The translations under genes and the position numbers were made by a program. From contig NC_073390.1 in NCBI RefSeq assembly GCF_028641065.1, positions 28,458,001 to 28,522,000 on the forward strand: a DNA stretch of 64,000 nucleotides, in the 5' to 3' direction. Below are positions 4,723 through 63,338 of the stretch, in pieces. The notes under the pieces are model-generated. The model was not told the DNA's origin. It did no database searches and worked only from the letters and a program-made list of their open reading frames with translations. Position 1 is the first letter of the stretch. Each line of letters opens with the position of its first letter. Origin of the DNA: Leucoraja erinacea. Lineage: Eukaryota.

Positions 4723-4819
4723 CTAGAAAAGGACAAGAGTGTGTCAGGAATTATGGTAAATGTATCTGGTCTATGGATTTTAACAGGATCTATGTGAGGA
4801 CTTTTACTGACACTGTGCC

Positions 4820-6403
4820 CTACCCGTACCCTACTCAGCAGAGCTGGTCCTTCCCCTTAATCTACCAACACTCTCCTCCGCCTAGAAGAGCTGGTCCTTA
4901 CTCTAACAACTTCTCCTTCGACTCATCTCTCTTCCTCCAAATCCAAGGCATAGCTATGGGCAGTTGTATGGGCCCCATCTATGCCTGGCTCTTTTAGGGT
5001 ACGTCAAACAATCACTGTTCCAGACATACACTGGCCCTATCCCTGAACTCTACCTCCGTTACATTGATGACTGCATCGGTGCTACCTCTTGCACCTACAC
5101 AGAACTCACTGACTTCATTAACCTTACTACAAATTTCCATCCTGCACTCAAATTCATTGGACAATTTCCCTACCGTTTCTTGATCTCTGTCGCAGGAGAC
5201 AGACTATCAACTGACGTCTATTATAAACCCATTGACTCCCACAGCTATCTAGACTACACTTCTTCCCACCCTGCTTCCTGTAAAGACTCTGTCCCCTACT
5301 GCCAATTCCTCCATCTACTCCACATCTGTGCCCAAGATGAGGTGTTCCATACCAGGACATCGGAGATGTCCTCATTCTTTAGGGAATGGTGGTTCCCCTC
5401 TTCCATCCCAGATGAGGCCCTCAATAGGGTCTCCTCAATATCCCACAGCCCTGCTCTTGCTCCCCCCAGTCGCAACAGGGACAGAGACCCTAGTCCTCAC
5501 CTTCCACCCCATCAGCCATTGCATACAGCACATAACCCTTCGACATTTTCATCACCTGCTACGGGATCCCACCACTAACCACATCTTCCCATCTCCACCC
5601 CTTTCCACTGAGACCGTTCCCTCCGCAACTCCCTGGTCAACTCATCCCTTCCCACCCAAACCATCCCCTCCTCAGGTACTTTCCCCTGCCACCGCAGGAG
5701 ATGAAACACCTGTTCCTGTTCCTATACCCCCCCCCCCCCCCCCCCCCCCGACTCCATCCAACGACCCAAGACAGTCTGGTGACGCAGTGGTTCACTTGCA
5801 CCTCCTCCAACCTCATCTACTGTATCCACTGTTCCAGGTGTGGATTCCTGTATACCAGCGAGACCAAGCGCAGTCTCAGCAATCATTTCTCGGAACACCA
5901 CAGTTCAGTCCGCCTGAAACTACCTGATGTCCCGGTTGCTGAACACTTTAATTCCCCCTCCTATTCCCACACAGACCTTTATGTCCTGGGCCTCCTCCAT
6001 TGTCAGAGTGAGGCCCAGCGCAAATTGGAGGAACAGCACCTCATATATCGCTTGGGTAATTGACACCCCAGTGGTAAGAACATTGACTTCTCTAACTTCA
6101 AGTAATCCTTGCTTTCCCTCCCTCTCCATTCCTCCCCCTTCCCAGTTCTCTGACCAGTCTTACAATCTCGGACTACATTTTATCTCTGTTGTTACCTTCT
6201 CCCAGCTAACAATGATCTATTCTTCATTTTCCTTGATATCCATTCCCTTTGCCTTGTTTTCACACCTTCACGTCCTTATCTATCAATCTCCCTTCCCCCT
6301 GACGTCAGTCTGAAGAAGGGTCTCGACCTGAAACGTCACCCATTCCTTCTCTCCAGAGATGCTGCCTGTCCCGCTGAGTTACTCCAGCTTTTTGTGTCTA
6401 TCT
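4820..6403 (+). mobile_element. 5'-truncated, frameshifted Penelope-like retroelement (RT, GIY-YIG endonuclease, terminal repeat)
   Basis: RT motifs QIQGIAMGS and YLRYIDD; thumb region TDVYYKP; endonuclease region CTSSNLIYCIHCSRCGFLY..ETKR; hammerhead-like core at 6310-6338. Confidence 0.92.
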
Positions 6404-7192
6404 GCAAGTCTTGGGAGTTCAGTATCGGGCCTAACACTTCACCTGTCTGTTGCCAACGTTTCAGAATGGTGCACATGGAGTCCATGTAGGGTCCATTTGA
6501 TGTAAGGACCACAGTGTAGATATTGCTTATGAATTGTGCTGTGTATCGGGCGAGTAATACTATTGGCCACCCAATATGCCGTATATACTGTCAATGTTGG
6601 CAAACAGCTCTTGTCACAATTACATGCACTGTTCCCATTCTATTATTTTCCTTCATTCACATTCTAATCCAATCTTTACTGCAGAGATCTTCGTGCCCCG
6701 GTGCTAACTGAAAATTCCACAGCTTTATTGCTGCCTGAATACATCTCATTTGCCCCTGCGTTTGCTTAGCAACATTGGTAAACCATTGCATTGACTGAAC
6801 CCTTTCCATGGCCTCACTCCTCACCATCGCCAAAACCATCAGTTCTCTTCTCTCATAGACAGACGCAAAGTGGTGGAGTAACTCGGCGGGTCAAGCAGCA
6901 TTTCTGGAGTAAATGGATCGGTATGTTTTGGGTCGAGATCCTTCTTCAGACCCTCAGGCAATGTGTTTTTCATTCCATCCATCCTCTGAATGAAAATAAA
7001 TTCTTCCTCAGATCCACTTCACCTGTGCCTTCTGATTACAGACACCTCTGCGTCCCTCTAAAATACTGAACTTAATTCTCCTATTATAACATAAAATGTT
7101 TTACCCCCTCACAAACACTGAGAACCACCTGCACCTTTGAATCTAATTTTTCTTGTTATGGACAAGCTGCCGCCGCCCCCTCCTCCACTCAC

Positions 7193-7225
7193 CTGCCGCG
7201 CCACCGGCTGCATCCTCAGGCTCAT
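7193..7225 (-). CDS. MTERF4: MTERF4 coding exon 1 (MSLRMQPVARQ; the ATG at 7213 is an alternative start)
   Basis: Lies in a CpG-rich patch. The strong donor CAG|gtgagt is phase 0 and joins exon 2 in frame. The short first exon ending in RQ parallels the recalled human N-terminus MAAFGRQ. Confidence 0.8.
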
Positions 7226-7470
7226 GTCCGCATCCCGGGGCGGTGTGTCTCCGACTCCAGCTCCTCGACACCCGTGTCCGTGGCTGAACGTTCCGCCGCC
7301 GTAGCCGCCCCACCTCGCTCATGGGCATAGCCGACATTTGCACTCGCTCTAACTTTGTCTGTTCACCAACTCGCCGTCTTTAAACTGAAATCCATCTCGG
7401 AAAGACTGCAGTCCCTTGGGAAACACAAGTGACTTCACGGTCAGAGCGCGGATGTTTTATCCTTTTCTCC
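7226..7470 (-). promoter_or_regulatory. MTERF4 CpG-rich 5' UTR / proximal promoter
   Basis: Local CpG enrichment immediately upstream of exon 1. The TSS cannot be determined from sequence. Confidence 0.55.
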
Positions 7471-7729
7471 CAACAGAAAATGACACGAGACTGCAGATGC
7501 TGGAACCCTGAGTGAAACACCTGTCATAACTCTTCCCTCAACCCCATCCATGGGCTTCGACAATCCCTCCAGGTGTGACAGATGTTCACATGTACATCCT
7601 CGAACCTGATCTACAGCATCTAGTGTTCCTGATGTGGGCTCCTGTACATCGGCGAGACTAGGCTGAACTTTAGCTTGATCCACCAAGGCCTCTAGGACCT
7701 CCCGGTCACCAACCATTTTAACTCCCCTA

Positions 7730-8941
7730 CAGGGTGGTTGCACGAAAGGTCACTGGGTCATAGGGCTCGACGCACGGAGCCGCTAAATCCAACTGGAAGA
7801 CATCCGTCACTTCCGGTATATGTTATTAATGCTAGAAACGCGTACTTTCCTACCTGTTAAAAACCGCCAAAATGTTGAATTTTTGCGCTGAAAAAAATTG
7901 TGGGAGTCGGGGTAAGTGTGAGAGACATGTACCCAACTTTAGAATTCCAAACGTGAAGCGAAATGAAGGTATAGAGAAGCGAGAACTGAAGGGACTACAG
8001 CAGCTAAAGTGCTTGGTAAACATTGAAAATATTGGGAATTATCGCGTTTGCTCACTGCATTTCATCAAGTAAGGCATTATTTGTGTTTTTTCTTGATTCC
8101 TTTGGTATCTAAAAAGTCTCAGAAGTGATAAATCTGGCTGTAAATTTTTCTTCAGATGCGTTTTCATTTTGTATGTAAAAACCCACGAGAACCATGGGCG
8201 ATTTAAAAAAATTTACAGCCAGATTTATCACTTCTGAAACTTTTTAGATGCCAAAGGAATCAAGAAAAAACACAAATAATGCCTTAGTTGATGAAATGCA
8301 GTGAGCAAACGGCCAATGTTCGCCAATCACTCTGGCTGTTGTTGTCCCTTCAGCTCTTGTTTCTATCTACCGTCATTTCTCCTCACTTTTGGAATTCTGA
8401 AGTAGGCTAAATGTCTCTCACGCTTATCCCGATTTCCATAATTATTTACAGCGCAAAAATTGACCATTCGGCCCTTCGAGCCTGCACCGCCATTTAATAT
8501 GATCATGGCTGATCATCCAACTCAGTATCCCGTACCTGCCTTTTCTCCATACCCTCTGATCCCCTTGGCCACAAGGGCCACATCTAACTCCCTCTTAAAT
8601 ATAGCCAATGAACTGGCCTCAACTACCCTCTGTGGCAGAGAGTTCCAGAGATTCACCACTCTCTGTGTGAAAAAAGTTCTCCTCATCTCAGTTTTAAAGG
8701 ATTTCCCCCTTATCCTTGCTGTGACCCCTTGTCCTGGACTTCCCCAACATCGGAAACGCTTATCCCGATTTCCAATTATTTACAGCGCAAAAATTGACAA
8801 TTTCAGCGGGTTTTAACGGGCCCGCTACGCTGGAAACAATGGTAAGTGCCTACCTGCAGTTCATCGCGTGTAATCCATTTGGAGTAGCGTAGCAACAGTA
8901 CGGGTCATGAGTCGTGACCCGACTGCCATGAAACCTCCCTA
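7730..8941. mobile_element. Foldback/palindromic non-autonomous DNA element inserted in a Penelope remnant
   Basis: Imperfect terminal IRs (CAGGGTGGTTGCACG vs reverse-complement TAGGGAGGTTTCATG) and a long internal inverted repeat. The flanks 7470-7729 and 8942-9420 are consecutive parts of one Penelope 3' end. Confidence 0.75.
8465..8756 (-). mobile_element. CR1 3' fragment nested in the foldback element
   Basis: High similarity to the reverse complement of about 2910-3205. Confidence 0.9.
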
Positions 8942-10979
8942 TACTGACATGTCTCGCCTGGGCATCCTTCATTGTCATTGTGAAGCCACTCGCAAATTGG
9001 TGGAACAGCATCTCATATTTCATTTGGGTACCTTACACTCCAATACAATTCTCCAATTTCAAATACATTCCACTATCTTTCCTCTCCATTCTCTCCCCCT
9101 TGCCCACTTCATCCACCCTTGTTGTTTAACCAGTTTCACAGTTCACCAAATTGAATCCCTCGAGATCACAGCTTCCCTAGTCAACAATGGGTTGACCAGG
9201 GCACCACTCTGCACGAGGGTCATTTATTGCTGGCCATGATTGGTACTTGTCTTTTCTCGCCACCAGCTCTTCATCACCCGCCCCATCCTCCACTCTCAGT
9301 CTGAAGGGTCCCAACTAAAGACATCAAATCATTTTTCTCCAGAGATGCTGTCTGACCCGCAGAGTTCTCCAGCACATTGTTTCTAATATAAGTATAAACC
9401 AGCATCTACAGTTCTGTTTCTGCTACAGTAACACTGCGGGTCAGAGGGGGTCTGTTTGCACTTGACAAAGGGAGTTCAGTGAAGATTCACCAGACGGGTA
9501 CCTGGCTTTGCCATCACCGTCATAAGTGTAGGAAGGAACTGCAGATACCAGTTTACAATATAATAGATTCTGGAGACAAGTCTCCAGAGATGCTACGTGT
9601 CCCACTGAATTACACATTTTGTGTCTACCTTCTGCTTTAATAAATTTTGGTTTTTATTTTTTTTTAAATTTAAAGCTTCTGATGCACATTTATTTCCTGC
9701 CAAAACACCCAGGAATTATGACACTTCCTCTGCCGCTGAGGACAGGATTCTGTCTGACAGCTGATTGTAAATGTTGTTGTCTCTGGAACAGACAAGTTTG
9801 AGGAGGGATAATTGAGCCGAGCCGAGATGGAATAGGCAAGACTATTTTCCTTTAGCAGAGGGGCACAAAATTTAAAGTAACCTGTAGAAGGATTAGAAAA
9901 AAGAGTGGGGAAAGTGGCGTGTGTGGTACGGTGGAAAGCTTTTTTGTTGTGTGCTATCCAGTCAGCAAAGATTATACATTATTACAAATGTGTAGGAAGG
10001 AACTAACTGCAGATGCTAATTTACACCGAAGATAGACACAAAATGCTGGAGTAACTCAGCAGGACAAGCAGCATCGCTGGATAGAAGGAATGGGTGATGT
10101 TTCAGGTCGAGACCCTTCTTCAGACTTCTATCCAGAGATGCTGCCTGTCCCGCTGAGTCATTCCAGCATTTTGTGTCTAGGTTAGACAACATTTCTGGAG
10201 GACATGGATAGGTCACCTTTTAGTTTTTTGGATCCCCAAGCTAAAAAAAGTGACATTTCAGGTCGAGACCTTTCTTCTGAGTCATTGTCTGGGGGAGGAA
10301 GGAGAGGGGAGAAGCGAGAAAGCTGGAAAAGATGTCATATTCATATCATATTCTGCAACAGTACTTCAGCACCAGCAAGTCTTTCAGAATGTGCAAAGTA
10401 CTTGAGATGTCGTGAAAGTGCTATTTAAATCCAAGTCTTCTTGGCAGGAATTAGTTGCATTTTAATCCCAGTAAAAGTAAACTACTGGGATATTAGTTTC
10501 TTCATTGTGGGATCGAGAAGGCTTCAGATCTGCAGATTTGCTGGTCCCAGCTGACTTGCATTAAATGAAGAGCCAGACTTTTCATTCAAACTTCCAGCTG
10601 CAGAACGGCAAATGAGCAAAGCTCGCTGCTTCCAATTTCTGTCACATGTTTCCCATTGGAAAGCAGGTGTAATATGACCGCAGGACAGAACCTGGTTGCA
10701 GTCATTTAATTGGAGTGTTGCCCATGAGAATAAACAAAAGCGGTTTCGATCAGACTAATTGAAATAGTAAGTTCTATTCCTACAGTTTGGTAGTGTGAAA
10801 GTACAGAACAAATAGGCCAAGATCAGCTCACCCCAGAAAGCAAGCAGGATTCAAGCACATGCTCTCCTTCCCGGAAAGAGGTCAGTATGTGGCCCTAACA
10901 ACATAATTATAATGTAGAGGGAGTCGTGAGGTCTACTTATCTGAGCATTCGTCCGGAAGAATCTTACAAATGGTGTTTT

Positions 10980-14348: not shown

Positions 14349-14887
14349 TTACTTCAGGGCAGCCAGGGACAGAGTGACACCAGTTCGAAGCCGCAGTGCT
14401 GGGTGGAGCGGTTCAGTGAATGTTCCATGGAAGGTGTACAACAAGGTGATTATTCTGCCTGACACACTGTAAAAGGAGACAATACCACCTTCAAAATCTA
14501 CAAAAACTCCCACCGTGGATGGTTTCCCTGCAAACTCGGCAATCCTCTTCCCATTGTGTAGGCTTGAAAGGACGTATGGACCTGAATGGATGCACCAGGA
14601 CTTCTTGTTAAATCCCAGCAGGCATTCATCTCCCTCCCCCTTTCTGCTGATGCTGGTGTAGCAAACTCCAATGCTCCAGGCACCACCACCCTCCCTCACC
14701 TCTACCTCCCAGTAGGATCGGCCGCAGCTCACACACTGTGTGCCAAGGATCTGAGGCCATCGATCAAACCTGTGGGCACTTCTTTGAAACAGCTGTATTT
14801 GGCTCGATGCGGACACAGTTCGGTTGTTGTCTGTCAGGAGGAGGTAAGGATTGGCCGTGTCTGGATCCAGAGTCGGTGTCTGCCCAT
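14349..14887 (-). CDS. TRIM (TRIM25/16/finTRIM-like) exon 6, PRY-SPRY/B30.2 domain, stop TAA
   Basis: Acceptor ttcattcacag, phase 1. Carries B30.2 motifs TLDPDTANPYLLL, RFDRWPQILG, YWEVEV, VGVFVDFEGGIVSFY and FTEPLHP. Confidence 0.93.
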
Positions 14888-15010
14888 CTGTGAATGAAAG
14901 GAGGCAATGGCATCATTGGCTTTCGACCACACATGACTGAGACCTCAAGGCATTCCCAATACTTGGCCCAGAAAATGCTTTCTGTAGCAAACCTACAGAA
15001 GGTAGGTTTA

Positions 15011-21195: not shown

Positions 21196-21872
21196 CTTCA
21201 TTAAGGAAATATTAGTGATTGGACACAGTTCATCACGTCACTGGCATCAGCTACTGCTCAATTGGTGGCTTACTAGTCCCAGTCAGAAGATAGTGGGGGA
21301 AACAAATTGGTGAAAACCCTCAGTGGTAAGGGAATATTGCATTAACAAAGGTGTGATCTTTTGGCTGAACCATTACTTTGATGCCCAACATGTTTTCTCA
21401 AGGAAAATAAAATTTAAATGTTTTCCTCATGAGCTCCTCACAACTAATCTCTCTCAAGATTGTCCAGTGATTAACTCATTGCCGCACAAGCTGTTGTTGG
21501 ACACAAATTGGTTACATGCTTACTACAGAACAGAAACCACTTGTCAAACGCAACAGATCACAAGATAATTTTTCTACATCTTCGAACAAAAAGATGGAAT
21601 TAAATGCAGAAGAAAATTTATATCATCTAATGAAAAAAAATGTAGATACTGCAAATATTGACACACTGATCTGTTTTGTAGTAAATGCCTACGACACACT
21701 GATCTGATTTATAGTAAATGCCTACTATGTTCTGTGTGCTGAAGCAAAGCAAGAATTTCATCATCCTATCAGGGACACATGACAATAAACTCACTTGAAC
21801 TTGGACTTGAAATATTAAATAAATATACAAAATTATCAAGTCACAGCAGTTGTGGAGAAAGAAACAGACCAC

Positions 21873-23082
21873 AGATAAACACAAAAAGCTGGAGTAACTC
21901 AGCAGGACAGGTAGCATCTCTGGAGAGAAGGAATGGGTGACGATTTTGGTGGAAACCCTTCTTCAGACTGGTTAGGTATTAGGGAAACAAGAGATATAGA
22001 CGATGTGGAATGATAACGAACAATGAATGAAAGATATGCAAAAAAGTAACGACGATAAAGGAAAAAGGCCATTGTAAGCCGTTTGCAGGGTGAAAATGAG
22101 AAGCTAGTGCGACTTGGGTGGGGGAGGGATAGAGAGAGCGAGGGAATGCAGGGACTACCTGAAGTGAAAAAAATCAATATTCATACCACTGGGCTGTAAG
22201 CTGCCAGAACAAAATATGAGATGCTGTTCCTCCAATTTGAGTTTAGTCTCACTCTGACAATGGAGGAGACCAAGGACAGAAAGGTCTGTGTGGAAATGGG
22301 AATTAAAGTGTCCAGCAGCTTTGAGATCAGGTTGGTTCATGCGGGCTGAGTGAAGGTGTTCGGCGAAATGATCACCCAGTCTGCGTTTGTCTCGTCGATG
22401 CACAAAAGTCCACATCTTGAACAACGGATACAGTAGATGAGATGGGAGAAGGTGCAAGTGAACCTCTGCCGAACCTGAAAGGACTGTCGGCGTCCCTGGA
22501 CAGTCGAGGGAGGAGGTATAGCGACAGGTGTTGCATCTTCCGCGGTTGCAGGGGAATGTACCTGGGGAGGGGATGGTTTGGGTGGGAAGGGATGAGTTAA
22601 CCAGGGAGCTGTGGAGGGAACAGTCTCTGCGGAAGGCGGAAAGGGGTGGAGATGGGAAAATTTGGCTAGTGGTGGGATCCCGTTGAAGGTGCCGGAAATT
22701 TCGGAAGATTATGTGTTGTATGCGATGGCTGATGGGGTAGATGGCAAGGACTAGGGGGACTATCGCTGTTGAGACTAGAGGGAGGGGGAGCAAGGGCAGA
22801 GCTGCGGGGTACTGAGGAGACACAAGTGAGGGCCTCATCTATGATGGGTGAGGGGAACCCCTGTTCCCTAAAGAATGAGGACTTCTCGGATGTTCTAGAA
22901 TGGAACACCTTATCTTGGGCGCAGATGCGGTGTAGACGGAGGAATTGGGAGTAAGGGATAGAGTCTTTGTGGGAAACAGGGTGGGAAGAAGTGTAGTCGA
23001 GATAGTTCTGGGAGTCAGTGGGTTTGTAATAGACATCAGTCAATAGTCTATTTCTCATGATGGAGACTGTGAGATCAAGAAA
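21873..23082 (-). mobile_element. 5'-truncated Penelope-like retroelement
   Basis: Encodes TDVYYKPTDSQNYLDYTSSHP...SIPYSQFLRL and RRLGDHFAEH...KLEEQHLIF; colinear with 5180-6403. Confidence 0.92.
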
Positions 23083-24103: not shown

Positions 24104-24195
24104 CTAGCAGAGAGCAGCAAAAAAAAAAGTCACTGTAAGCTTTTAAACAAAACAGTGAAATAAAGAGCAACACACCTCCGCCCGCACACTCGTAC

Positions 24196-24726
24196 ACTCA
24201 GCTCGTTCACTGCCTCGCTGATGCTGACAACTTCGTGGCCCTTGTGGCTGCCCAGCAACGCGCAGAAGGTGCAGATGCAGGCGGCGTCGTCCTTGCAGTA
24301 GATCTCCAGCAGCTTCTGGTGCTCGTCACACCTCCCCGATGCCGCGCAACCCACGGCAGGGTGACCTTCCAGCGTCGCGTCCTCGCCTTGCTGCATCGAC
24401 GACGTCTGGCACCCAAGGCAGCTTTTCGCAACAGAGTACTTCTTCTCGGTACAGGGGGCGGCGTCCGGGGACATTTCCAGCGCCTTGTACCGCTCCACTA
24501 TGTTCGCCAGCTGGAAATTCTTCTCCAGGACCGGCCTAACGGCGGAGCCCGCTCGGCATTGCGGGCAGGCGTAAATGCCGGAGTCAGGCTCCCTCCACAC
24601 CTCCTCCACGCAGGCCCGGCAAAAGCTATGCCTGCAGCTGAGAATGACTGGCTCGGCGAAAATCTCCAGGCAAACGGTGCACGTTAATTCTTCCTCTAAC
24701 GGTTCTTGCTGGAGAGCGGCAGCCAT
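24196..24726 (-). CDS. TRIM exon 1: C3HC4 RING, degenerate B-box1, B-box2
   Basis: Starts at aacATGG. RING: LEEELTCTVCLEIFAEPVILSCRHSFCRAC...CPQCR. B-box2: CDEHQKLLEIYCKDDAACICTFCALLGSHKGH. The donor AGT|gtacga is inferred from phase. The six exons total 1551 nt, i.e. 516 aa. Confidence 0.92.
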
Positions 24727-26160
24727 GTTGAAAGACGTGCGACGGAAATGGCGGGCGGAGAGAGCGCCCGTTACACCGCTCGCTCGGTCCAGCGCACGGA
24801 ACGTCCCGGGCAGCAACAAACCAAAGATCCAAGAGGAGCTCTTTGCAACAAACCTTCCCCAACGTGAGGGACTGACGACGCCGGAATCCGGAGCAACTAC
24901 CCGAGGATCTCAGCGGATCACGCAGCATCTGTCGACCAAAGATCTTTGCTGTCGACTGTCCAAGTCAATAGTGTTTTATTGTCACATGTCCCAGTTAGGA
25001 CAATTAAATTCTTACTTGCTACACAGATTCTCTCCACAGATACTGCCTGACCCACTGAATTCCTGTGGCTGTTGGGTTTTTTTTCTCACTCAACCTTGAC
25101 CTGGAAATGAAGAACCAACTAAATGGCCCGTTGAGCGGATTGATTTTATTGGTATTTAGATGGGGTTTTTTAACCAACGTCTCTTCAAACTGGATAGATA
25201 TATATATATGGCGGCGAATCAGGATTCATTGCAGTGCACATCAGTCAGCTGCACACTGCCAATGGAGAGGATTGACGAATGTATAGATAGACAGGAGCCT
25301 GCAAATGAGTTTGGAAAGTCTGCAAAGTAATCACGTTGGGTGGTGATACGGGGTGGGGCATAGGGCCATCAAATCTTCCAAACTCGAAATGACAGCAGAA
25401 AACTCTAATTAAGTAGCAGCGGCCGAGCATCTGATTTGCCCAATATGCTGAATAAGAATAATCAATTTATGATATGGTCTTCATTTTGTGGAAGAATACA
25501 TAAAAATATCTTTTGCACAGTTGTTAAAATGACACGGCTTATACATTTTCTGGAATAAATGTCACACCTAATGTGAGGGTTTTTCTCCAACCATGAGGTA
25601 CCCACTGCCATCACAAACGGTACTCTGGGAAACATGCCCCACATTAGGCCCAATCAAGAGGGTAAGTAATTTAACTTCAATTTGAATGCGGAGCCAGGAG
25701 CAAGAGTGTGCTGTGTCAGTCCCAATCCCAGTCGAATTTTGTTTGAGTTTCGAGCCTTCACTTCACTCTCTCTGCCTCGATCTCCCAACTTTTTAATCCC
25801 TGCAATCTACCCACTTGATCATTGGACATACAATACCCGAATCCTAGCCCTGATTATATTGTACTTTTGATTATTATTGTTTGTATACTCTGTAGCAAGT
25901 AGTTAGGTGGGCGCTATTGAAGCTGATGACTACAAGGGGTGGACTGTAGTGTAAGGGTTAAACAGACAATTTCAGCTAAAATATGGAATGGAGTTATCAG
26001 CTAAATTAGCAACCCTACATTTCCATTGCCTCTCGAAAACGTTTCCAGATGCGTTATCTCCTTGCATTTGTGATCATTGCCTGGGAACGCAGTCTTCAAG
26101 ATTATTCTATGGGAAAGCATAACGTTGGCAAACACAACCCAATAGTTGGGTAGACCACCC

Positions 26161-29692: not shown

Positions 29693-30779
29693 CAATACGT
29701 TACCCATTCATTCTCTCCGAAGATGCTGCCTGTCCCGCTGAGTTACTCCAGCTCTTTGTGTCTATCTTTAGAGTTTCATTGTTCCTTTTGACTTATGAAA
29801 ATAGAACTCTTTTGACTGTTTTCTGCACCCTCTTTAACTTAGTGATACCCTTACTACAGCAGGGACACACAATACTCCAAACTTGGCCTTATTTTAAAAC
29901 AGTAACACAACATCCAAACTCCAGTGCTCAATATGTTTAAGTAGGAACTGCAGATGCTGGAAAATCGAAGGTGGACAAAAATGCTGGAGAAACTCAGCGG
30001 GTGAGGCAGCATCTATGGAGCGAAGGAAATAGGCTTGAAGAAGGGTTTCGGCCCGAAACGTTGCCTATCTCAATATGTAGGAAGGAACTGCAGATGCTGG
30101 TTTAAACCGAAGGGACACAAAATGCTGGAATAACTCAGCGGGACTGGAGTCTGCAGTCTGAAAGGATCTCGACCCGAAACGTCACCCATTCTTTCCATCC
30201 AGATGCTGCCTGTCACGCTGTTGCTCCAGCATTTTGTGTCCAGTACTCAATATCCTAATTGCTGAAGGGAAGGGTGCCACCCTGTCTACTCGTGTTACCA
30301 CCTCCATAGAATTATACATATCCATCCCTACAAAACTCTTCAGCGCAGTTTACTGTGTTTGATGTTGTTTGGAGACTGAGGAAAGACAATTGCGAATGAA
30401 ATTACACGACGTAGATCAGAAATAGGAAGGCCATCTTTCTCTGTTAACGGTGAGGTGAAAAAACAGGGGGCGTACACTTAAAGGCATTGGTGGCGGTACA
30501 GGGAGATCTAATGGCCGCCTCTGGGTTGTAAATTTAACAGGATTCCGCCATAACCATTAATAACAGGCATCAGGGAAAGTGCGTGGCGTGACATCCTATT
30601 TTTGATCAGGCCACGTCGTACAGTGAGTATTTTCTACATGTTTGGCCTCACAAGGCAAGGGGAAACAGCCCATTGCTGGCAGCCCGTTCCTACCCGACCA
30701 CGAAAACAGACAGACAGACACAGTCTGCCACTGCCACACACTCACGAAAGGCCAGAGACTCCCACTCCCAGCAGGCGGC

Positions 30780-33659: not shown

Positions 33660-34625
33660 GTAGGTAGACACAAACTGCTGGAGTAACTGAGTGGGACAGG
33701 CAGCATCTCAGTCAGGAGAGAAGGAATGGGTGACTTTCTTCAGACATTTTTTGATTTCTTTCGTGCCTCCTTTGTCCTCATTCATTTTTCATTTACATCT
33801 CTCCAGAACACCTCATCTGCAATTACAAACCATCTATTCTTTAGAGAAAGGAGGAACTGCAGATGCTGGGTTACATAAAAAGCCCCCACAAAGTGCAGGA
33901 GTAACTCAGCAGGTCAGACAGCATCTCTATAGATCATGGGGAGGTGATGTTTCGGGTTGGGACCCCTCTTCAGCCTGATCTTACGGTTTGTTTTGGGGGG
34001 GGGGGGGGGGGGGGGGGGGAGCTGGAGGTGAAAGCTGGAAGAGAGCAGGCCTGGCAAATAATGGGTGGATAGAGGCGAGGGGGTGAACACTTGCGCTCGG
34101 TCCACAAAGGCCTACTGGCTTTCCCAGTTGCTTATCATTTTCAATTTTTCTTCCCATTCCCATACTGACTTGTCTCTCCTGGGTAGACAAAAATGCAGGA
34201 GAAACTTAACGGGTGAGGCAGCATCTATGATGCGAAGGTATAGGTGACATTTCGTGTCAAGACCCTTCTTCAGACTGGGTGGGGGGGGGGAGGAAGAAGA
34301 AAGGAAGAGGCGGAGACATTAGACTGTGGGAGAGCTGGGAAGGGAGGGAAAGGAGGTAGAAAGCAAGGACTACCTGAAATTGTAGAAGTCAATGTTCATA
34401 CTGCTGGGGTGTAAACTGCCCAAGCGAAATATGCGGTGCTGCTCCTCCAATTTGCGGTGGGACTCGCTCTGGCCATGGAGGAGGCCCAGGACAGAAAGGT
34501 CGGATTTGGAATGGGAGGGGGAGTTGAAGTGCTGAGCCACCGGGAGATCAGGTTGGTTAATGTGAACTGAGCCACTATCTCTCCTGGGCATCCTCCATTG
34601 CCAGGGTGAGGCTGCGCGCAAACTA
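33660..34625 (-). mobile_element. Cluster of Penelope-like 3' fragments
   Basis: Encodes NQPDLPVAQHFNSPSH...RKLEEQHRIFRLGSL; close to 11700-12115; several terminal repeats. Confidence 0.85.
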
Positions 34626-39557: not shown

Positions 39558-39755
39558 TGATAGAAGGTACACAAAAAAGCTGGAGAAACTCAGCGGGTGC
39601 AGCAGCATCTATGGAGCGAAGGAATGGGTGATGTTTCAAGAGCCGAAACATCATCCATTCCTTATCTCCAGCGATGCTGCCTATCCCACTGAGTCACTAC
39701 AGCATTTTGTGTCTATCTTCAGTTTAAACCTGCATCTGCAGTTCTTTCCTACACC
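39558..39755. mobile_element. Mini-element of two inverted Penelope terminal-repeat halves with 14-bp TSD
   Basis: GTTCAGTGAGCTAA at 39544-39557 and 39756-39769; central inverted junction gaatgggtgatgtttc...gaaacatcatccattc. Confidence 0.85.
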
Positions 39756-50014: not shown

Positions 50015-52991
50015 TTTATTTGGAAATAAATGGACAGATTTTGTAATGATGACCATTAAACTACCAGTTTACTCCTGTTTGCTAGATTGCAAATTTGGGG
50101 GGGGGGGGGGGGACAATCGGAGTACGTTCAGCAAGTAACTGCAGTGCATTTTGCAGATAGTGTAACACTGCAGCCACTGTACAGAGTGATGGAGGGAATG
50201 GTTTGTTTAAGTTGCTTAATGGAATGCTGATAGGCTGCTTTGACCTGAATGGTGGCAAACCTTGTTGGAGATGGAGTCATCCAGGGCATTGGAGACTATT
50301 CCATCACATGTGTAGGAAAGAACTGCAGATGCTGGTTTAAATCTAAGGTAGACACAAAATGCTGCAGCAACTCAGTGGGTCAGACAGCATCTCTGGAGAT
50401 GATTTTCTCCCCATTCCTTCTCTCCAGAGATGCTACCTGACCTGCTGAGATACTCCAGCATTTTGTGTCTATCCCATCACATTCCAGACTTGTGCCTTCT
50501 AGATGAATGAATGACTTCGGGGTATCAGGAGGTGAATCACTTGCCACATGATTCCAAGCTACTGACCTGGTCATGTAACCACAGCTTTTTTGTGTCCGGT
50601 CCAGTTAAGTTTCTGCTCGGCCTCCAACTGTAATGGCAGTGGAGTTGGCGGTTTTAGTGTTATTTAATGTGAAGCTTTAGGTGGTGAGAATGAATGAATA
50701 ACTTTATTGACCAAGTATGTACACATACAAGGAATTTGCCTTGGTGCTCCGCTCGCAAGTAAGAACACGACATACAGTAATAAACCATTAAGAATAAAGC
50801 ATAAAACATTAAGAATAAAACATTATAGTTTAAACATGTGAATGAAATAAAATACCAGAGCAAAAGGAGGCTACAGTTGGAGATGGTCAATCTTCTGACA
50901 ATAAACTTGTGTCAGAACACTAGAGGATTGATAATTTTGGCTAGTAAGGAAGAAGTGACACTCTGTATAATTACAGCCATTTTGTAGTTGCAGGCCAGCA
51001 AACCTAGCCTCAGAAGGGCAATGTTAATGAGATTAGTAGGTTTATTTTACAGTTTACGGGAATGAACAACAACAACAGCAAGCATAGAATTTGTTGACTA
51101 TCTCAATTGTCCTTTAAGCTGTTGGTGTGCCAGCTTCTTTGTGGTAGAGATGTACTATGTACAAACAGTGATGCCATATAGGAGAAAATAAAGATGGTGG
51201 CAATCACATGTTTTCCTCCCTTAGTTTATGAGATGAAGAAGTTATAGGCTTGGGAGATACTATCTATGAAGCCTTATTGAGGTGCTGCGCTCCCTCTGAG
51301 ACATGTGCCTGGTAGATGGTGGACAGGCTTTGTGACTTGCGAGGTGTCATCTGCCACGGGACCCCCAGGTGCATAACTAAACTCAGAGCGCAGGAAGAAT
51401 CCAGTAGACCCTGGTACAGGATCTCAAACTGACGTGTCAGCTTGCACCTTTTGTGCAAGTAGAATTGCAACCATCACTAAAGTTCCCATTTTTATATGAT
51501 TCAAAAGGTAATTATTGGGGCAATGCATAGTTGGCATTAGAACATTGTCCTGTCCTGCTCTCTGTCAACTGTTGTAATAATATCAAGAACATTCAACCTC
51601 TCTGCCTCTGGAATTCAGTTTTTTTCCCTCCATGCTTGGACCAGGGCTGTAATGAGGTTTGGATTAATAAACTTGAAAAAAATTGTTATCTGAATGGGAG
51701 AGCTGGAGAATTTAAATTCCATTAATTAAATAGAGACAAGAGGTTGCAGGTACTGGAATCTGGAACAATCTGCTGGAGGAACTCTCCAGCAACTGTGGTA
51801 GGAGAGGAACGGTGTCTGGGGCAGAGTTAGAAAATGTCCACAACCCAGATCCTCTGCATCTAACGTAGGTGTCACATGTTCCATTCCAAACCATGCTGTC
51901 CATGCTATTATAGCTCCACCCCAATCCAAAAGAGGATAAAATGACCATCCAACAGCTTGAAAACCAGATCTTTGGAGCAGACCAAATCGTAGCTCAAACA
52001 CGGGACAGTATTGTGTTTCAGCAATGTTTAGTGATACTTGAGGTGATCATCTTTGACGTGTACAAGATGTTGAGGATAGATATTAAGAAGCTGCTTCATC
52101 TTACAGGAGAGTCTAGAACTAGGGTCTAGGATAAGGAGGTGGCCATTTAAAACTGAAAAGCTATTTCTTCGTACAAAGTGTTGTAATTCCTTTGAATTCT
52201 GAACTTCAGGCCTGTGGATGTTGAGTATATTCGGGAAGAGATTTTTGGACAGGTGGAATTAGGAAATGTGGAGATCTTGCAAAGAACCTGATCTTATTGG
52301 GCAGAGGAGCAAGCTTGAGGGCTTTGTAGTCTACTTCTATTGTTAATGTTTAAAATTGACAGTTTAACTTAATGTCTAAAAAACAACAGAGTGAATGTTT
52401 CCCTTTGCCAATAGGTCAATAACAGGGAGGAAGACAATTTAAAATAATTGGTAAAAGATCATGGTGGTTGACATGACTGCTATCCCGAGGCCTGGGTATT
52501 GGTCTGAAAACAAGAGTTTGAATAATACCACCAGAGCATCTGGGGAATTTAAATTTGTGTAATTAAATGAATCTGGAATTCAAGCAGCCAATTATTTTTT
52601 TTTTTTTCAAACAATGTTTCTATAATGTACATTAGGGAACAAAATTGCCAGATGGGAAGCGATTGTATCCACTTGGTGTGTGGTGAGATGCTGGAACTGT
52701 CTGTTAGAAAGGCAGAGATCTATATTGCATGTTATGCAACTTAAATTAGTTCTAACATAAAGCTAGAGTCCAAGGGCTAGACTATGCATTTGTTTGTTAT
52801 TTTTTACTTCTCGTGTATGTATTCATTAGCTAATTTTGAAGAGTTTATAAGGAATGACCTTGGACTAAATTGGATATTCCTTTTACGACCAAATTAGCTG
52901 TTTGTCCTATAAAGTCTAATTCTATAACTGATTCGTATAAAAAAGGAAATTGCATTGTGTAAAAAAAATTAATATCCACTCTCCGTCTCAG

Positions 52992-53300
52992 TTTCAGCGC
53001 AAGCACCGAGCTCTGTTTCTGCAGCAGCGATTGCAGCTCAGGCTGGTGTAGGTGTAGCGTCTACTGTCCATCTCAACCCCATGCAGCTGATGACTGTGGA
53101 CGCCACGCATACACGTCACATTCAGGGGCTCCAGCCGGCGTCCATCACTGCCCAGGGGCTACAGCCAACTTCATTTGGCCCCCAAGGAATTCAGCCATCT
53201 CCACTTGGAGCTCAGGGAATTCAGTCATCCGCTCTTGGGACCCAGGCTCTGCAGCCTGCATCACTCGGCTCCCAACAGACGTCGGACAACAAACCACCAG
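52992..53300 (+). CDS. SAP130: SAP130 coding exon 12, with five 10-aa QG(L/I)QP-type repeats
   Basis: VSAQAP...GVGVASTVHLNPMQLMTVDA, then QGLQPASITA QGLQPTSFGP QGIQPSPLGA QGIQSSALGT QALQPASLGS; phase 1-1. Confidence 0.94.
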
Positions 53301-53429
53301 GTAAAAGGGAAAGCACACTTTAAAAACCTGCAGGGGTAGTTAATTAATTGGCTTGGCCGTATCTCCTTATAGCCATGCACTTATTAGCACTATCTATCTA
53401 GCATTATCTGCCTAGCTTTATCGTTATCT

Positions 53430-54115
53430 ATCATTTTGACGCATGTCCAGGTCAATATCATAAAACACCAGAGATCCCAGCACAGATCCACATGTCGCAG
53501 ACCCCAGAATAACATCCTTCCACCACAACCCTCTGCCTTCTATGAGGAAGCCAGTTCTGAATCAAAACAACCAAATCGCTGTATATCCCATGCATCTTAA
53601 CCTTCTGGATCAGCCTGCCAATGAGGGCTTCATCAAATGCCTTATTCAAAAACAGTTTCCACTGCCATACCCTCAACGATCACCTTCGCCACCTCCACAC
53701 AAAAAACCTCAAATCAAGTTTGGAAGACATGAACTCCTGTGGATAAAGCCTTGCTGACTGTCCCCAATTACCCCATTCTCTTCCATATGTAAGTAAATCC
53801 TATCTGATTAAAATCCTCTCCAATAGCTTACCAGCCACTGATGTGAGTTTCACTGACCTTTAATTTCCTGGAGCATCTCTATTTCCCTTCTTAAACAGCT
53901 TCACCCCTTGCCTGTGGCTAGAGAAGATGCAAAGATCCTTGTTAAAGCCCCGGCAATCTCCTCTCTTGCTCCTCTCAATAACACGGGATGGATTTCATCA
54001 TGTCCTCTGGTTTTATCCACATTAATACTCTTCAAGAGCCATAACACTATTTTCTTGAACTCAAATTGCCCAGGCATATTTGTATTCCCTACACTGATCT
54101 TCATGTCCTCCATAA
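53430..54115 (-). mobile_element. CR1 RT-region fragment
   Basis: Encodes KAFD...IQNWLPHRRQRVVVEG and VDKTRGHDEIHPVLLRGAREEIAGALTRIFASSLATG. Confidence 0.85.
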
Positions 54116-54577
54116 AGGGGCAGGCTTTACGGGAGGCCTTAAGTGCCTGAACATGGAGCCTAAACAATTAAGAACACTTGTAAGTGGTTGGGTGAAAGGA
54201 ATTGGGTGGATGATCAAGCTGCAATTGGAGGAGGATTATGGCACCAGAGGTGATTCGAATTAAGGAGTGAGACCACAGTGAGATTTGTAAACACATGTGA
54301 TGATTTTAAATGAGTGGCATTGATGTACTGGAAGTTGAATGTTCCATTCAGCCATCATCTCTGTGGAACCAATGTAAGATGTGGAGCAGCATAGTTTTGG
54401 ATGACTGCACATTTACAGAAACCGGAAAATTGGAGGTTAACAAGGTGAATGTCAAAGAATGGGAATGTGAAGTAACTAAAGTGTGTAAGAAGGAACTGCA
54501 GATGCTGGTTTAAACCGAAGATAGATATAAAAAGCTGGAGTAACTCAGCGGGACAGGCAGCATTGTTGGAGAGAAGG

Positions 54578-54619
54578 AATGGGTGACGTTTCGGGTTGAG
54601 ACCCTTCTTCAGACCGATT
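54578..54619 (-). ncRNA. Minimal type-I hammerhead ribozyme-like motif in a Penelope terminal repeat
   Basis: The minus strand reads AATCGGT CTGAAGA A GGGT-CTCA-ACCC GAAA CGTC^ACCCATT: CUGANGA and GAAA boxes, a 4-bp stem II, a GUC triplet and a 6/7-bp stem I. Confidence 0.6.
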
Positions 54620-55701
54620 ATTCGGAGTTAACAGCTTTTGTGCCTATCTTGAAGTAACTAAAACGTGGATGACTTGTCACGTGTGTTGGCAGTGGGGGAG
54701 GCATGATACTCTGGAGGTGAAGTTGATGGGCTGGTGGGTGCAGTATGGAAGCTTGGAGCTCCGTTCAGATCAAGGATACCAGTAATTTGGCCTTGCGTAG
54801 GATAGGAAATTGTATAATTTGCCACTTGGTAGTTGTGGTGGGTTATGAAGATAATGAAGCCTTTGTCTTCCCAATGTTTAATTGAAGAGATTTATTTGCT
54901 CATTTGCATCTGCATATTGAACTTGATGTCTGGCACAGGATGGAAAATGGATCAGAGGTGGCAGTGAGGTGGAGCACTTCATTGTCAGTGTACGTGCAGG
55001 ACATGATATTAATCAGTACTGTCAGAGAAAAGTGAATTCAAATTCTACCCAGAGCCTGAGCATAAGTTCTCTTCTGCATTTGATTTCAGTGGGAAGGAAG
55101 TGCTACACTAAGGTCCCATTTCGTAGACAAAAAACTGAACAAGATCCAACTGTTCTCTAATGCAATGATGTGGTACAGAAAAGGACAGGACATTATCTGT
55201 AGTAATTTAGCTAATATTTGTTTCTATCTATTCGACATTGTGATATTGTCTACATTAGTAACCAGAATATAACGTGCTTCATTGTCTACACATTGTTTTA
55301 GGGCACTGAATAATTAAAATGAAATGCAAGTGTACTTTGGTCCCTTGGGAACAGTGGAAAGTGGATCTTGATCACCTTGATCACGTACACTAATCACTAG
55401 TTCCATGCATCACACATGATATAAGCATCCTGATCAATTTATGAAGGGGTCAGCAATGGCTCTTTCTGTAAACAAGCATTGTTATTTGTGGGAGATTTTT
55501 ATTAATTTCTAGTGGGACATGGGTAACCTTCGGTGCTGAAATGACGAGAATTCCAGGAGCTTAACATTGCAGTTGGGTCCAGACCAGTTGGTGTTACACT
55601 TTGAAATTTGCTTGATGCCAGCTGATTACTTTTAGTTGAATGGTCGTGTCCATTCTGTCTGTATCATGAATGTGTCTTACATGTGCGTCCATGTTATTCA
55701 G

Positions 55702-55876
55702 CAGTGATGTTGACGGATGGAGCAACCATTATAGCCAATCCCATCAGCACGTTCAGCGCGACACCTGCTGTCACAACCGTGATTCAAACCCACACTCCAA
55801 GCAGCAGTACTACTGCTCTAACACAAGGATCTTCGCCACGGCCCAGTATTCTGCGCAAGAAGCCAGCCTCCGATGG
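55702..55876 (+). CDS. SAP130: SAP130 coding exon 13
   Basis: AVMLTDGATIIANPIS...QGSSPRPSILRKKPASDG; phase 1 to 2; CAGCAG tandem acceptor. Confidence 0.93.
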
Positions 55877-57000
55877 GTGAGAGCATTTAACTGTTGCTTT
55901 ACTTTTCCCCAGTCAAGCTGACCAAATTGTGATGAGATAAATGTAACCACCTTTCAATTGCATGGCATGTGTGGCAAAACCTGTCAATTCATGTTAATTA
56001 AATCATCTTGCATTCATCACATGTATTTTTGTAAAAGGAGAAATTGTATGGAAGAAAACTGGATAGATTTATTCTAACTTAAACTGGATTCCAGTTGGCT
56101 TCTTCTGTGGTGTCGTAGAGCAGAGACACAGGCCATCAACCCACAGTGTCTCATGTTAACTATCAAGCTGTCCTTGCACTAATCCCTTTTTTAAATTTAC
56201 ACCCAACCCCCTTACCAACACGGTAGTAGTAGCATTTGTAGTGGTCAGTTAACCTACCAACCTAGTGTTCCTTGGGATGAGGGAGGAAACTGGAGTACCC
56301 AGAAGAAACCCATGTGGTCATAGGGAGAACGTGCAAGCTGCACACAGACAGCATTAGAGGTCAGGATAAACCTTGGGTGTCTGGCAATGAATAAGCTCTC
56401 TTTTAAACTAAGTCACTGTGCTACTCTCTTGTGTTTGCTAATGTTCAAAATGAACAGGCATTTCCAAAGCACATCTGATATCACTTGACAGCAGTGAATG
56501 TTATACCCGTAGCTAATAAATATGCTTTTTGTTAGCCAAAGCAGACAGCTTTTATTAGTCTTGTTCGAAGTGGTTGATATTATTTGGCATAGAAATGGAC
56601 ATGTATCCTCTTAATGGATACCATATGCAAAATAAAATAAGAAAAAACACATTTGTAGAAAAACAGTTGGAGGCAGGCAGCATTTGGAGAGAAACAGTTA
56701 ACGTTTCTGGTCTAAGAAACAGTTCTGACTGTTTCTAGCATTTTCAGCTTTTATTTCAGGTTTCAATATTTTTAAAGATTTTTTTAAATGATCATTGTAT
56801 GTTGAAGTCAGAAAATGGATGAACTTATTGTCCATCTGAACTTGTTGCCGAGAACCATTCAGATGTTTATTCAACTGACTCCAACTTGTAGTATCACTAA
56901 GTTGCAATTATACTTCTACTCCAGGTTATTGTCTGAAATATAAATGTGATGTGATGCTGTTCACCAGCCTAGTTGAAATTGTCATGTCCATTGTTTGCAG

Positions 57001-61261: not shown

Positions 61262-63338
61262 AAAATACTTTGGGGATTTTCCTTGAATATTTGCACCAGT
61301 GATACTTCATTTCTTTGGCCGCCTAAATTTTCTGCAACTATCACCTGGACTTTCTCTAATCATGCAGAGCCTTCCTGCTTTCAGTTCCCTGTATCTGCTG
61401 TACAGTTGTTTTCTGTCACTATCTCTTGGCACCCAGGGTGCCATGGACTTGCTGGCCTTAGCTTCACCCTAATGGGAACACGTTGTCCCTGAACTGTCAT
61501 CATTTCATCTTTGATTACCTCTGAATACTTGCATGTAACGTCTGCTGCAAGTAACTGATCTCAATCTACTTTTGCTAGATAGACACAAAGTGCTGGAGTA
61601 ACTCAGCGGGTCCGGCAGTATCTCTGGAGAAAAAGGATGGGTCACTTTTCGCTTCTGACCCATCTTCAAACTGACTACGTTTGCTGCACACTATTGCTGA
61701 ATCTTGTCTTGTGATAATGAAAACAGCCTTTCTTCAATTTCTGATGTGTCCCGATACCTTTCCTGAATTATCTTGAAACTTATAGTTATGGTCACTTTAT
61801 CCAAATTGTTTCCCCATAATTCAACCACTTGCCCAGCTGAATCCTCATGATTAGATCCAGTACTGCCCCTTCTCTAGTTTGACTTTAATGGCTCAAAAGG
61901 TTCTCCTCAAATCTTTGCACTCCAAGACAAGCCCAGATAATATTGGGAAAGTTGAAATCCCCTTTTGCTGTAACCCTATGATTCTTATCCCTCTCCATAA
62001 TTTGCCTACATATCTGCTTTTCTGTCACCCAATGACTTTTGAGACACCTGTCGGGTATCCCAGTAAATTAATACCCTGTTTGGTTCTTAAGCTCTGCCAT
62101 ATGGGCAAAAGATAAAGTGCTGGAAGAACTCAATAGGTCAGGTAGCATCTGTGGAGGGAATGGACAGGTGAGGTTTTGGGGTGGGACCCTCTTTTAATCT
62201 GACAGCTGAGTTCCTCCTGCATTTTTTTTTTGCTGAAGATTCCAGCATCTGAAGTTTCTGCCCATATGAACGACTTTGAACAGCCTATTACGATATTGTC
62301 CCTCATTGCTGCAGTAATGGACTCCTTAATCAATATCGCAATGCATCTCCTGTTTTGCATCACACCTATCTGAAGGTTCTATTTCCTGACTGTTGAGTTG
62401 CCAGTTCCAGTGGCAACAATAGTATATTCATATGTGTTAATCAATGCTTTTGACTCTTCTGCCTTGCTGGTTAGACCTTGTGCAATAAAATAGAGGGAAT
62501 TTAGCCTTGTGTTTCTCCCATGTACCTCATCATGTCCATGTCTGGTCTGCCTTCTCGACTTAGCTTTCCTTCCAGAGTTGATGTACGTTCCACATCTCTG
62601 CAAAGTAGCATAAACCCTCTTGGGCTGCACTAGCTGCAGAAGCACGTTACTACTTGTAATTTTACTCTGCCATGTCTCTACTCCAAATCGGCTGTAAAAA
62701 TGTTTCATTTTACTTCTACTATTGAAACGTAAAGTTAATTTGTATTGTTGGTGAAATGTAAGATTTTTGTTAATTGGCAATCGAGCAACATGGGTGATGA
62801 CGTTGTTTATACTATAGTAGCAAGGATTCCAATGTCACTATTATATGCAGAGTAAGAGTCCACCAAAAAATGAGGTAAATTACTAGTTAATAGCTATTTT
62901 GGTCATTGTGGTAGATGTTTACTGAGATAGTGGCGTCTTGAAAATCCATTTAAACCTATCAAAAAGTTAGTTTGGAGCCTAGTTTAAAAGAAATTTACCC
63001 TGGCATTTCTATTAAAATTCCCATTTGAGTTGTTTGAAAAATGGAAATGACCATCTCTGAAATTAGTTTGTGTAATTATTTGAAAGATTAGTTGTTTAAA
63101 TGTCAATCTTTCTTTCAATTTTACATTGTTGATCTGGAGAGCGGTATTGGTCTAATTGTAGGTTTTGAAGGTTGATGGTCTGGTTTATGCTGTCCCGTTT
63201 TACTGGGTTGTTGGGCTTAAATCCACGCTTCGTTGATCTATGTAACTCCATTTATTGCTAAAAGGAAGTAAAATTTCTGTATTTGGTTCCCACTGCATAA
63301 TAACCTTGGACTGATGCCTTCTCTATCTTTAATTGCAG

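What the first reader, a model, noticed from the sequence alone, without database searches (positions are those of the whole stretch)
54578..54619. Best-formed minimal hammerhead ribozyme among more than 10 Penelope terminal-repeat copies
Seen: the short repeat CTGAAGA-A-GGGTC(TC)GACCC-GAAA-CGTC-A recurs through the window. The cores are intact or nearly so at 6310(+), 10095-10123(-), 33945-33973(-), 34245-34273(-), 35726(+) and 54584-54612(-). They are decayed at 554, 6925, 10251, 11788, 12228, 21938, 30034 and 30158. The 54.6-kb copy also forms a 6/7-bp stem I (AATCGGT/ACCCATT). Established: Penelope-like elements carry minimal type-I hammerheads whose very short palindromic stem III requires dimerisation, and an extra A between A9 and G10.1 occurs in some natural hammerheads. 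Inference: stem III here is only ACGU with no loop, so cleavage would need two copies pairing in cis or trans. Stem I is only 1-2 bp in most other copies.
Basis: partly seen in the sequence, partly recalled or inferred. Interest (0 to 1): 0.7.

Follow-up and report, generated by a model that had tools for sequence, protein, structure and literature searches.

The report
Ordinary Penelope-end hammerhead in skate intron
This is a 169-base leftover of a known jumping gene in a skate intron that carries a known tiny self-cutting-RNA motif facing away from the host gene, and it is likely inactive, although its many sister copies start just ahead of the motif and not at the cut site, which suggests the jumping gene copies itself from uncut RNA.

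Summary
The motif is real: an intact minimal type-I hammerhead core on the minus strand (C3 54612, GUC^A at 54585/54584). It heads a 169-bp insertion with a perfect 13-bp target-site duplication, antisense in a SAP130 intron of a skate genome. It is the 5'-UTR/pLTR end of a Neptune-type Penelope-like element, a known home for such motifs. It is not special: 34 of 387 fragments in 800 kb of unselected DNA pass the same descriptor (about 90,000 genome-wide, extrapolated), and four other copies share its stem-I arm. It does rank first of 69 intact copies for predicted stem I, but a decoy fold dominates (0.77 vs 0.08). Inserted copies decay at neutral rates, and intact cores show no intronic orientation bias (16 sense:17 antisense). 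Side result: 5' ends of short copies pile up 0-8 nt before C3, with no excess at the cleavage site, so integrated copies likely derive from uncut RNA. This scan already noted that pile-up on other shark and skate DNA; the 'extra G' reported there was not reproduced here. Cleavage itself is untested. Verdict: new member of a known kind, low interest.

The parts
54468..54480 (.). target-site duplication, left copy (13 bp)
   Evidence: perfect match to 54650-54662
54481..54518 (-). Penelope 'tail' (about 38 bp optional 3' extension)
   Evidence: 3' ends of 385 fragments are bimodal, with and without this piece
54481..54620 (-). direct short copy: 5' UTR/pLTR end of the Neptune-type element, starting 8 nt before C3
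   Evidence: 6 differences in 87 positions from its subfamily mode
54578..54584 (-). stem I 3' arm; also predicted decoy partner of the stem II 5' arm
   Evidence: sequence; folds
54585..54592 (-). G12-A13-A14, palindromic ACGU (stem III without loop), C17; predicted cleavage between 54585 and 54584
   Evidence: sequence; hammerhead numbering as in PMC4209133
54593..54604 (-). stem II, 4 bp with CUCA loop, G10.1-C11.1 kept
   Evidence: sequence
54605..54612 (-). C3-U4-G5-A6-A7-G8-A9 box plus the extra A
   Evidence: sequence
54613..54619 (-). stem I 5' arm (A-to-G variant of the family's usual arm gives a third proximal pair)
54625..54649 (+). short inverted piece of the same repeat, ending at the tail-less end point
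   Evidence: sequence; read by eye, too short for the profile
54650..54662 (.). target-site duplication, right copy (13 bp)
53300..55700 (+). host intron of SAP130 (flanking coding exons 52991-53299 and 55701-55877)
   Evidence: tblastn of P0002; GT..AG joints on + further downstream
4905..6409 (+). longer decayed copy of the same subfamily: RT and GIY-YIG pieces followed by the hammerhead at 6310
21868..23082 (-). longer decayed copy: RT, CxxC linker and endonuclease pieces, broken hammerhead at 21966

Best explanation
The 54.6-kb motif is the minimal hammerhead at the front of the 5' UTR of a Neptune-type Penelope-like retrotransposon, carried into a SAP130 intron as a short, likely dead insertion that would not cut any RNA at this locus. 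Shown: the insertion's anatomy, its family, its antisense position, neutral decay of copies, no orientation bias, and 5' ends of short copies stopping 0-8 nt before C3 with no excess at the cut site. Inferred: the element's protein nicked the target, primed reverse transcription at the two internal start sites about 95 and 130 nt downstream of C3 (tail-less and tailed ends), and ran off the front of an uncut RNA that begins just before the ribozyme. Inferred: in the source element the ribozyme is kept off by a decoy pairing and cuts only with a partner RNA and/or the element's protein.
For: 12 of 20 long-frame copies have the motif 109-124 nt after the stop of an RT + CxxC + GIY-YIG frame; in tandem unit L126 (3992 bp) the first ATG of the next frame lies about 136 nt after C3. 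13-bp TSD here; TSDs in 24 of 99 solo tailed copies vs 2 of 99 controls. 43 of 65 inverted pairs join one tailed and one tail-less end. End rate per nt 0.060-0.078 at -10..+1 vs 0.005-0.006 downstream; about 58% of 289 solo short copies end at -8..0, about none at -13..-9; 15 of 24 TSD-bounded copies have the TSD end at -10..+4. Cut-site bin: 18 ends among 675 at risk (0.0053/nt) vs 0.0050-0.0067 beside it. Intact cores in gene bodies 16 sense:17 antisense; all 453 fragments 215:238. Core 11 of 11 positions invariant over 7 subfamily modes. PMC11167929: internal RT initiation at two sites explains the tail; uncut RNA is the dominant substrate; the ribozyme needed protein.
Against: No biochemical test. 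Core conservation over subfamilies is only borderline against the downstream UTR (11 of 11 vs 42 of 58, p=0.056). No transcription start was seen in RNA reads, no extra-G cap trace (18 of 62, 17.9 expected), and a TATA-like word lies at -27..-35 in only 11 of 84 long-like copies, so 'RNA front end' is inferred from DNA ends alone. As an isolated 45-mer this copy's predicted minimum-energy fold does contain stems I and II. The orientation test has only 33 intact copies and detects only strong depletion. Read depth on unique sequence at this locus was too low to exclude a minus-strand transcript.
Confidence: 0.85

Rival explanations
1. This copy (or its sub-lineage) is a working dimer ribozyme: the extra stem-I pair lets it cut when two such RNAs meet through ACGU, in a minus-strand transcript or in trans among the many transcribed copies.
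For: Best predicted stem I of 69 intact copies; its double-hammerhead model is -12.3 kcal/mol vs +4.5 to -6.7 for three other 45-mers; a 3-bp stem I is the norm in 50 distinct variants from metagenome contigs (74-80% paired vs 43-55% shuffled); the repeat is abundant in RNA reads on both strands.
Against: Antisense to SAP130; in the full insertion P(stem II)=0.07 and P(stem I)<=0.02; dimer minimum-energy fold is an alternative at -19.5 kcal/mol; no read-end pile-up (libraries poorly suited); no intronic sense depletion; published min-HHR dimers cleave weakly (PMC4209133).
Confidence: 0.12
2. The pile-up of 5' ends comes not from a transcription start but from a block: the folded ribozyme or bound protein stops a 5'-3' exonuclease or the reverse transcriptase at the outer edge of stem I, or a splice acceptor at CAG|UCUGA is used.
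For: The wall at about -8 coincides with the outer end of the 7-nt stem I arm; long copies have a pyrimidine tract and CAG just before the core; D. virilis Penelope has an intron ending at helix I (PMC4209133, PMC2377424); no cap-G trace here.
Against: Stem I is weak in most subfamilies; no shared exon-like sequence was seen upstream of -1 in short copies (part of the listing was cut from view); the mode of ends is at -3, the A of TCAGT, which fits an initiator (consensus recalled, not from a call).
Confidence: 0.3
3. The short copies are a separate SINE- or retrozyme-like element that spreads by itself through ribozyme cleavage and circularisation.
For: Short copies far outnumber long ones (289 solo short vs 81 long in 1.6 Mb); many have their own TSD.
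Against: Short and long copies share the same subfamily letters and upstream edge; units are not bounded by the cut site; this copy is solo, not a tandem unit; the two 3' end points are those of the long elements.
Confidence: 0.07

Closest known systems
Minimal hammerheads (min-HHR) in pLTRs of metazoan Penelope-like elements (Cervera and De la Pena 2014, PMC4209133)
   Same: CUGANGA and GAAA boxes, extra base between 9 and 10.1, G10.1-C11.1, palindromic 15.2-16.2 with no loop 3, place in the pLTR, thousands of dispersed solo copies, opposite-strand pairs; reported in fish Xena, Poseidon and Neptune elements.
   Different: Stem II is 4 bp (7-8 in the Schistosoma families); proximal stem I is 2 bp in most skate subfamilies and 3 here; no shark or skate entry found in the supplement file that could be searched; estimated copy number is far above the 4,000-9,000 given for coelacanth and Xenopus.
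PAc, Poseidon element of Anolis (Frangieh et al. 2024, PMC11167929)
   Same: Hammerhead near the start of the unit, two 3' end points about 35 nt apart (tail), copies made from uncut RNA.
   Different: In PAc the frame starts at stem II; here the first ATG is about 136 nt after C3, so ribozyme and both end points are in the 5' UTR. Different clade (CxxC linker present).
Neptune-clade EN+ PLE insertions (Craig et al. 2021, PMC8557442)
   Same: C-terminal GIY-YIG, CX2-5CxxC linker, partial tandems, inverted 5'-truncated copy, one-sided 30-40 bp tail.
   Different: A sharp wall of 5' ends just before the hammerhead is not described in the passages read.
Non-LTR retrozymes (PMC7229834, listing only; bioRxiv 10.64898/2026.07.22.740005)
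   Same: Non-coding, PLE-derived, type I hammerhead; reported in one chondrichthyan.
   Different: Defined as tandem units each with a hammerhead; this is a solo insertion with TSD and is not delimited by cut sites.

Membership tests
min-HHR of metazoan PLEs | CUGANGA, GAAA and NUH core | tested here: met
   CUGAAGA, GAAA, GUC
min-HHR of metazoan PLEs | extra base between 9 and 10.1; G10.1-C11.1 pair | tested here: met
   A 54605; G 54604 with C 54593
min-HHR of metazoan PLEs | palindromic 15.2-16.2, no loop 3 | tested here: met
   ACGU 54589-54586; kept in 7 of 7 subfamily modes after CpG-decay correction
min-HHR of metazoan PLEs | stems I and II can form and covary | tested here: inconclusive
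   within skate only one-sided changes (U-A to U.G at 10.4-11.4 and 2.1-1.1); two-sided variation of a 3-bp stem I in 50 variants from metagenome contigs (shuffles ignore relatedness); active fold is a minor predicted conformer
min-HHR of metazoan PLEs | located in the pLTR of a PLE | tested here: met
hammerhead ribozyme (functional) | site-specific self-cleavage | not testable with these tools
   no end pile-up in 4 poly(A)-type runs, which cannot show such ends reliably
Rfam hammerhead families | score at Rfam threshold | tested here: not met
   no hammerhead family among 12 matches at E<=5
Neptune-clade EN+ PLE | RT followed by CX2-5CxxC linker and C-terminal GIY-YIG | tested here: met
   linker in 19 of 20, GIY-YIG word in 17 of 20 long-frame loci; RVT_1 and GIY-YIG hits, both under Pfam cut-off
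Neptune-clade EN+ PLE | RT phylogeny separating Neptune from Nematis | not tested
   no reference sequences at hand; Neptune and Poseidon are the clades reported in vertebrates
EN+ PLE insertion | inverted 5'-truncated copy and one-sided tail | tested here: met
   this insertion; 43 of 65 pairs
non-LTR retrozyme | tandem units each carrying a hammerhead | tested here: not met
   solo copy between 13-bp TSDs

The most novel reading that the evidence does not exclude
The roughly one million skate fragments are a fossil record of the element's RNA: the hammerhead is the first 30-odd bases of the mRNA, held off by a built-in decoy (the 3' arm of stem I mimics the 3' arm of stem II in every subfamily), and only uncut RNA is ever integrated. 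Cleavage would then be a protein- or dimer-triggered decapping switch that turns the element down when its RNA is abundant, not a step that makes the template.
Probability: 0.3. Interest if true: 0.6.

Novelty: new member of a known kind. Interest (0 to 1): 0.25.

Why it matters
The single copy matters little. The family statistics bear on an open question, what hammerheads do in endonuclease-positive Penelope elements (called unclear in PMC8557442): with 675 copies spanning the cut site and no excess of ends there, in-vivo integrants agree with the in-vitro result that uncut RNA is the template (PMC11167929), and the absence of intronic orientation bias suggests that tens of thousands of intact cores do not harm host pre-mRNAs. 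The A-to-G stem-I variant is a handy natural gain-of-pairing construct for a cleavage assay.

Tried and rejected
Rfam scan: no hammerhead. Genomic trace of cleavage (5' ends at position 1.1): none. Selection on inserted cores: none after matching by base (A 5.3 vs 6.2%, C 12.0 vs 8.8%, G 10.6 vs 6.1%, T 7.6 vs 6.6%). Intronic orientation bias: none (gene strand inferred from Pfam exon hits; 80 stretches of 10 kb chosen by me between hits). RNA: no RNA holder listed; raw reads of four added runs showed no place where many molecules begin or end. The 3-4:1 excess of single-cell reads antisense to the ribozyme was rejected as evidence of cleavage: it is stronger upstream of the ribozyme, absent from the two bulk runs, and fits oligo-dT priming on A-rich antisense tracts (inference). 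Adapter-like loose ends at 54577 in 74 and 91 single-cell reads lie on the strand opposite the ribozyme next to ATGGG and were read as a template-switch artefact (adapter identity recalled). CpG decay of CGGT as the source of the common CAGT arm: rejected, since CAGT is the form in the youngest long-frame copies and counts are 158 CAGT vs 7 CGGT. Extra cap-derived G: 18 of 62, expected 17.9. The dimer-cleavage paper of Lunse et al. was not held; it is cited only through a review. Literature searches for a shark or skate report: searches gave nothing on point, one search was uninformative; the library lacks most subscription papers and Repbase/Dfam entries were not checked, so absence from print is not established.

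Full report
Observation. The motif is present as described on the minus strand, with C3 at 54612 and the predicted cut between 54585 and 54584. In this copy stem II is 4 bp with a CUCA loop, stem III is the bare palindrome ACGU, and stem I is 3 pairs, a C.C mismatch and 3 pairs. A profile finds 33 fragments of the repeat in the window; 2 of 33 (6310, 54612) pass a full descriptor of core, stem II, palindrome and two stem-I pairs. Rfam finds no hammerhead.

Setting. The genome is a skate's: the flanking gene is SAP130, 100% identical over the matched part to a Leucoraja erinacea protein record. Its coding exons lie on the plus strand, and the motif falls between exons 52991-53299 and 55701-55877 (GT..AG joints on plus). 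The host pre-mRNA therefore carries the complement of the ribozyme. The insertion spans 54481-54649 between perfect 13-bp duplications and consists of a direct copy that starts 8 nt before C3 and ends with the tail, plus a 25-bp inverted piece that ends at the tail-less point.

Family. A protein search of the genome gave 26,005 candidates, 150 scored. I took the 20 with the longest open frames: 19 of 20 have the CX2-5CxxC linker, 17 of 20 the GIY-YIG word, and 12 of 20 have the hammerhead 109-124 nt after the stop. This is the Neptune/Nematis layout (PMC8557442, passages read); no tree was built. In the 3992-bp tandem unit of L126 the next frame's first ATG is about 136 nt after C3, so the short copies are the element's 5' UTR. 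Long decayed copies of this copy's subfamily lie in the window at 4.9-6.4 kb and 21.9-23.1 kb.

How common. In 80 stretches of 10 kb taken at round coordinates of the 34 largest contigs there are 385-387 fragments, 34 of them descriptor-intact. Scaled to 2.19 Gb that is about one million fragments and about 90,000 intact cores (extrapolation). This copy differs from its subfamily mode at 6 of 87 positions. Its third stem-I pair comes from an A-to-G variant shared with L005, L012, L013 and L019, two of which continue into the family's upstream sequence, so it is inherited.

Is the motif under selection? Between lineages, probably: over 7 subfamily modes built from 349 copies (4-20% diverged) all 11 core positions and the ACGU palindrome are invariant, against 42 of 58 downstream positions (p=0.056); changes in stem II keep pairing and the triplet is GUC or GUU. 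The same core with a varying but paired 3-bp stem I occurs in 119 metagenome loci (50 distinct variants; 74-80% paired at pairs 1-3 vs 43-55% shuffled); their hosts were not identified. After insertion, no: core and downstream bases decay alike, and in 800 kb of gene bodies intact cores are 16 sense to 17 antisense.

Folding. As a 45-mer this copy folds stems I and II in its minimum-energy structure; in a 53-nt context P(stem I)=0.08 and a decoy, in which the stem-I 3' arm pairs with GGGU of stem II, has 0.77; in the whole insertion P(stem II)=0.07. My double-hammerhead model (drawn with swapped stems I to avoid a pseudoknot) is -12.3 kcal/mol against -19.5 for the best dimer fold. All subfamily variants at 1.1-1.4 are compatible with the decoy, but these are one-sided changes in related lineages and only suggestive.

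Ends of copies. 3' ends fall in two groups about 35 nt apart, and 43 of 65 inverted pairs join one of each, as expected from the two internal RT start sites shown for the Anolis element (PMC11167929, parts 1-2 of 4 read). 5' ends pile up just before the core: 0.060-0.078 ends per nt at -10..+1 against 0.005-0.006 downstream. A mixture fit on 289 solo short copies from 1.6 Mb puts about 58% at -8..0 (mode -3), about none at -13..-9, about 10% further up and the rest at +1..+14 (inverted pairs and 81 long copies left out). At the cut site there is no excess (18 of 675). Integrated copies thus come from uncut RNA; cut RNA might exist and simply not be integrated. Whether the wall is a transcription start is not shown: no cap-G trace, TATA-like word in 11 of 84 long-like copies, no read-end pile-up.

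Comparison with what is known. Minimal hammerheads in PLE pLTRs, their dispersed solo copies, opposite-strand pairs and weak dimer cleavage are described in PMC4209133 (parts 1-2 of 4 read; one of its supplement files searched, one not readable). The review PMC6765202 (passages) gives the dimer model. PMC2377424 (passages) places the D. virilis start 46 nt before an intron in the pLTR. The bioRxiv retrozyme preprint (part 1 and passages; supplements not seen) covers one chondrichthyan. PMC6155905 was searched by passage and added nothing. Searches for a shark or skate report found none on point. Earlier notes of this scan on other shark and skate DNA report the same short copies and fixed starts; I looked them up after my own counts.

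Verdict. Real motif, known kind, one likely inert copy among very many. Interest 0.25, nearly all of it from the family-level end statistics.

Noticed in passing
window 8045-8313: About 270-bp near-perfect hairpin (only sub-threshold microRNA matches in Rfam); looks like a miniature inverted-repeat element.
   Followed up: no
window 14349-14912 and 24130-24909 (-): PRY/SPRY and RING/B-box exons of a TRIM gene.
   Followed up: no
window 4183-4722 (-): mTERF-domain exon.
   Followed up: no
window 9988-10186, 29932-30241, 39560-39755, 50308-50473, 62112-62263: Head-to-head inverted pairs of the repeat; at 30032 the inverted partner supplies a perfect long stem I, but that core has C3U.
   Followed up: partly
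L126 2044-2184; window 54481-54560: Downstream of the ribozyme an 8-bp complement pairs the body with the tail and encloses a smaller hairpin in the predicted fold; candidate binding or RT-start structure.
   Followed up: partly
long copies, -45..-1 of C3: Pyrimidine tract, a CTRAC/CTGAT-like word and CAG just before the core in most subfamilies: resembles a splice acceptor, an initiator, or both (motifs recalled).
   Followed up: partly
subfamily modes: The oldest subfamily could form a 4-pair stem I with one bulge; younger ones keep only 2-3 pairs, so stem I may have eroded while the family kept spreading.
   Followed up: partly
840 fragments: Minor peak of 5' ends at +20 (G12; 16 ends), perhaps an alignment effect of the stem-II palindrome.
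   Followed up: no
L126 about 3000-3150: Short tandem peptide repeats in the element's N-terminal region.
   Followed up: no
L139-L257: Many other minimal-hammerhead families with the same core in metagenome contigs, several with G or A at position 17 (7 of 50 variants).
   Followed up: partly
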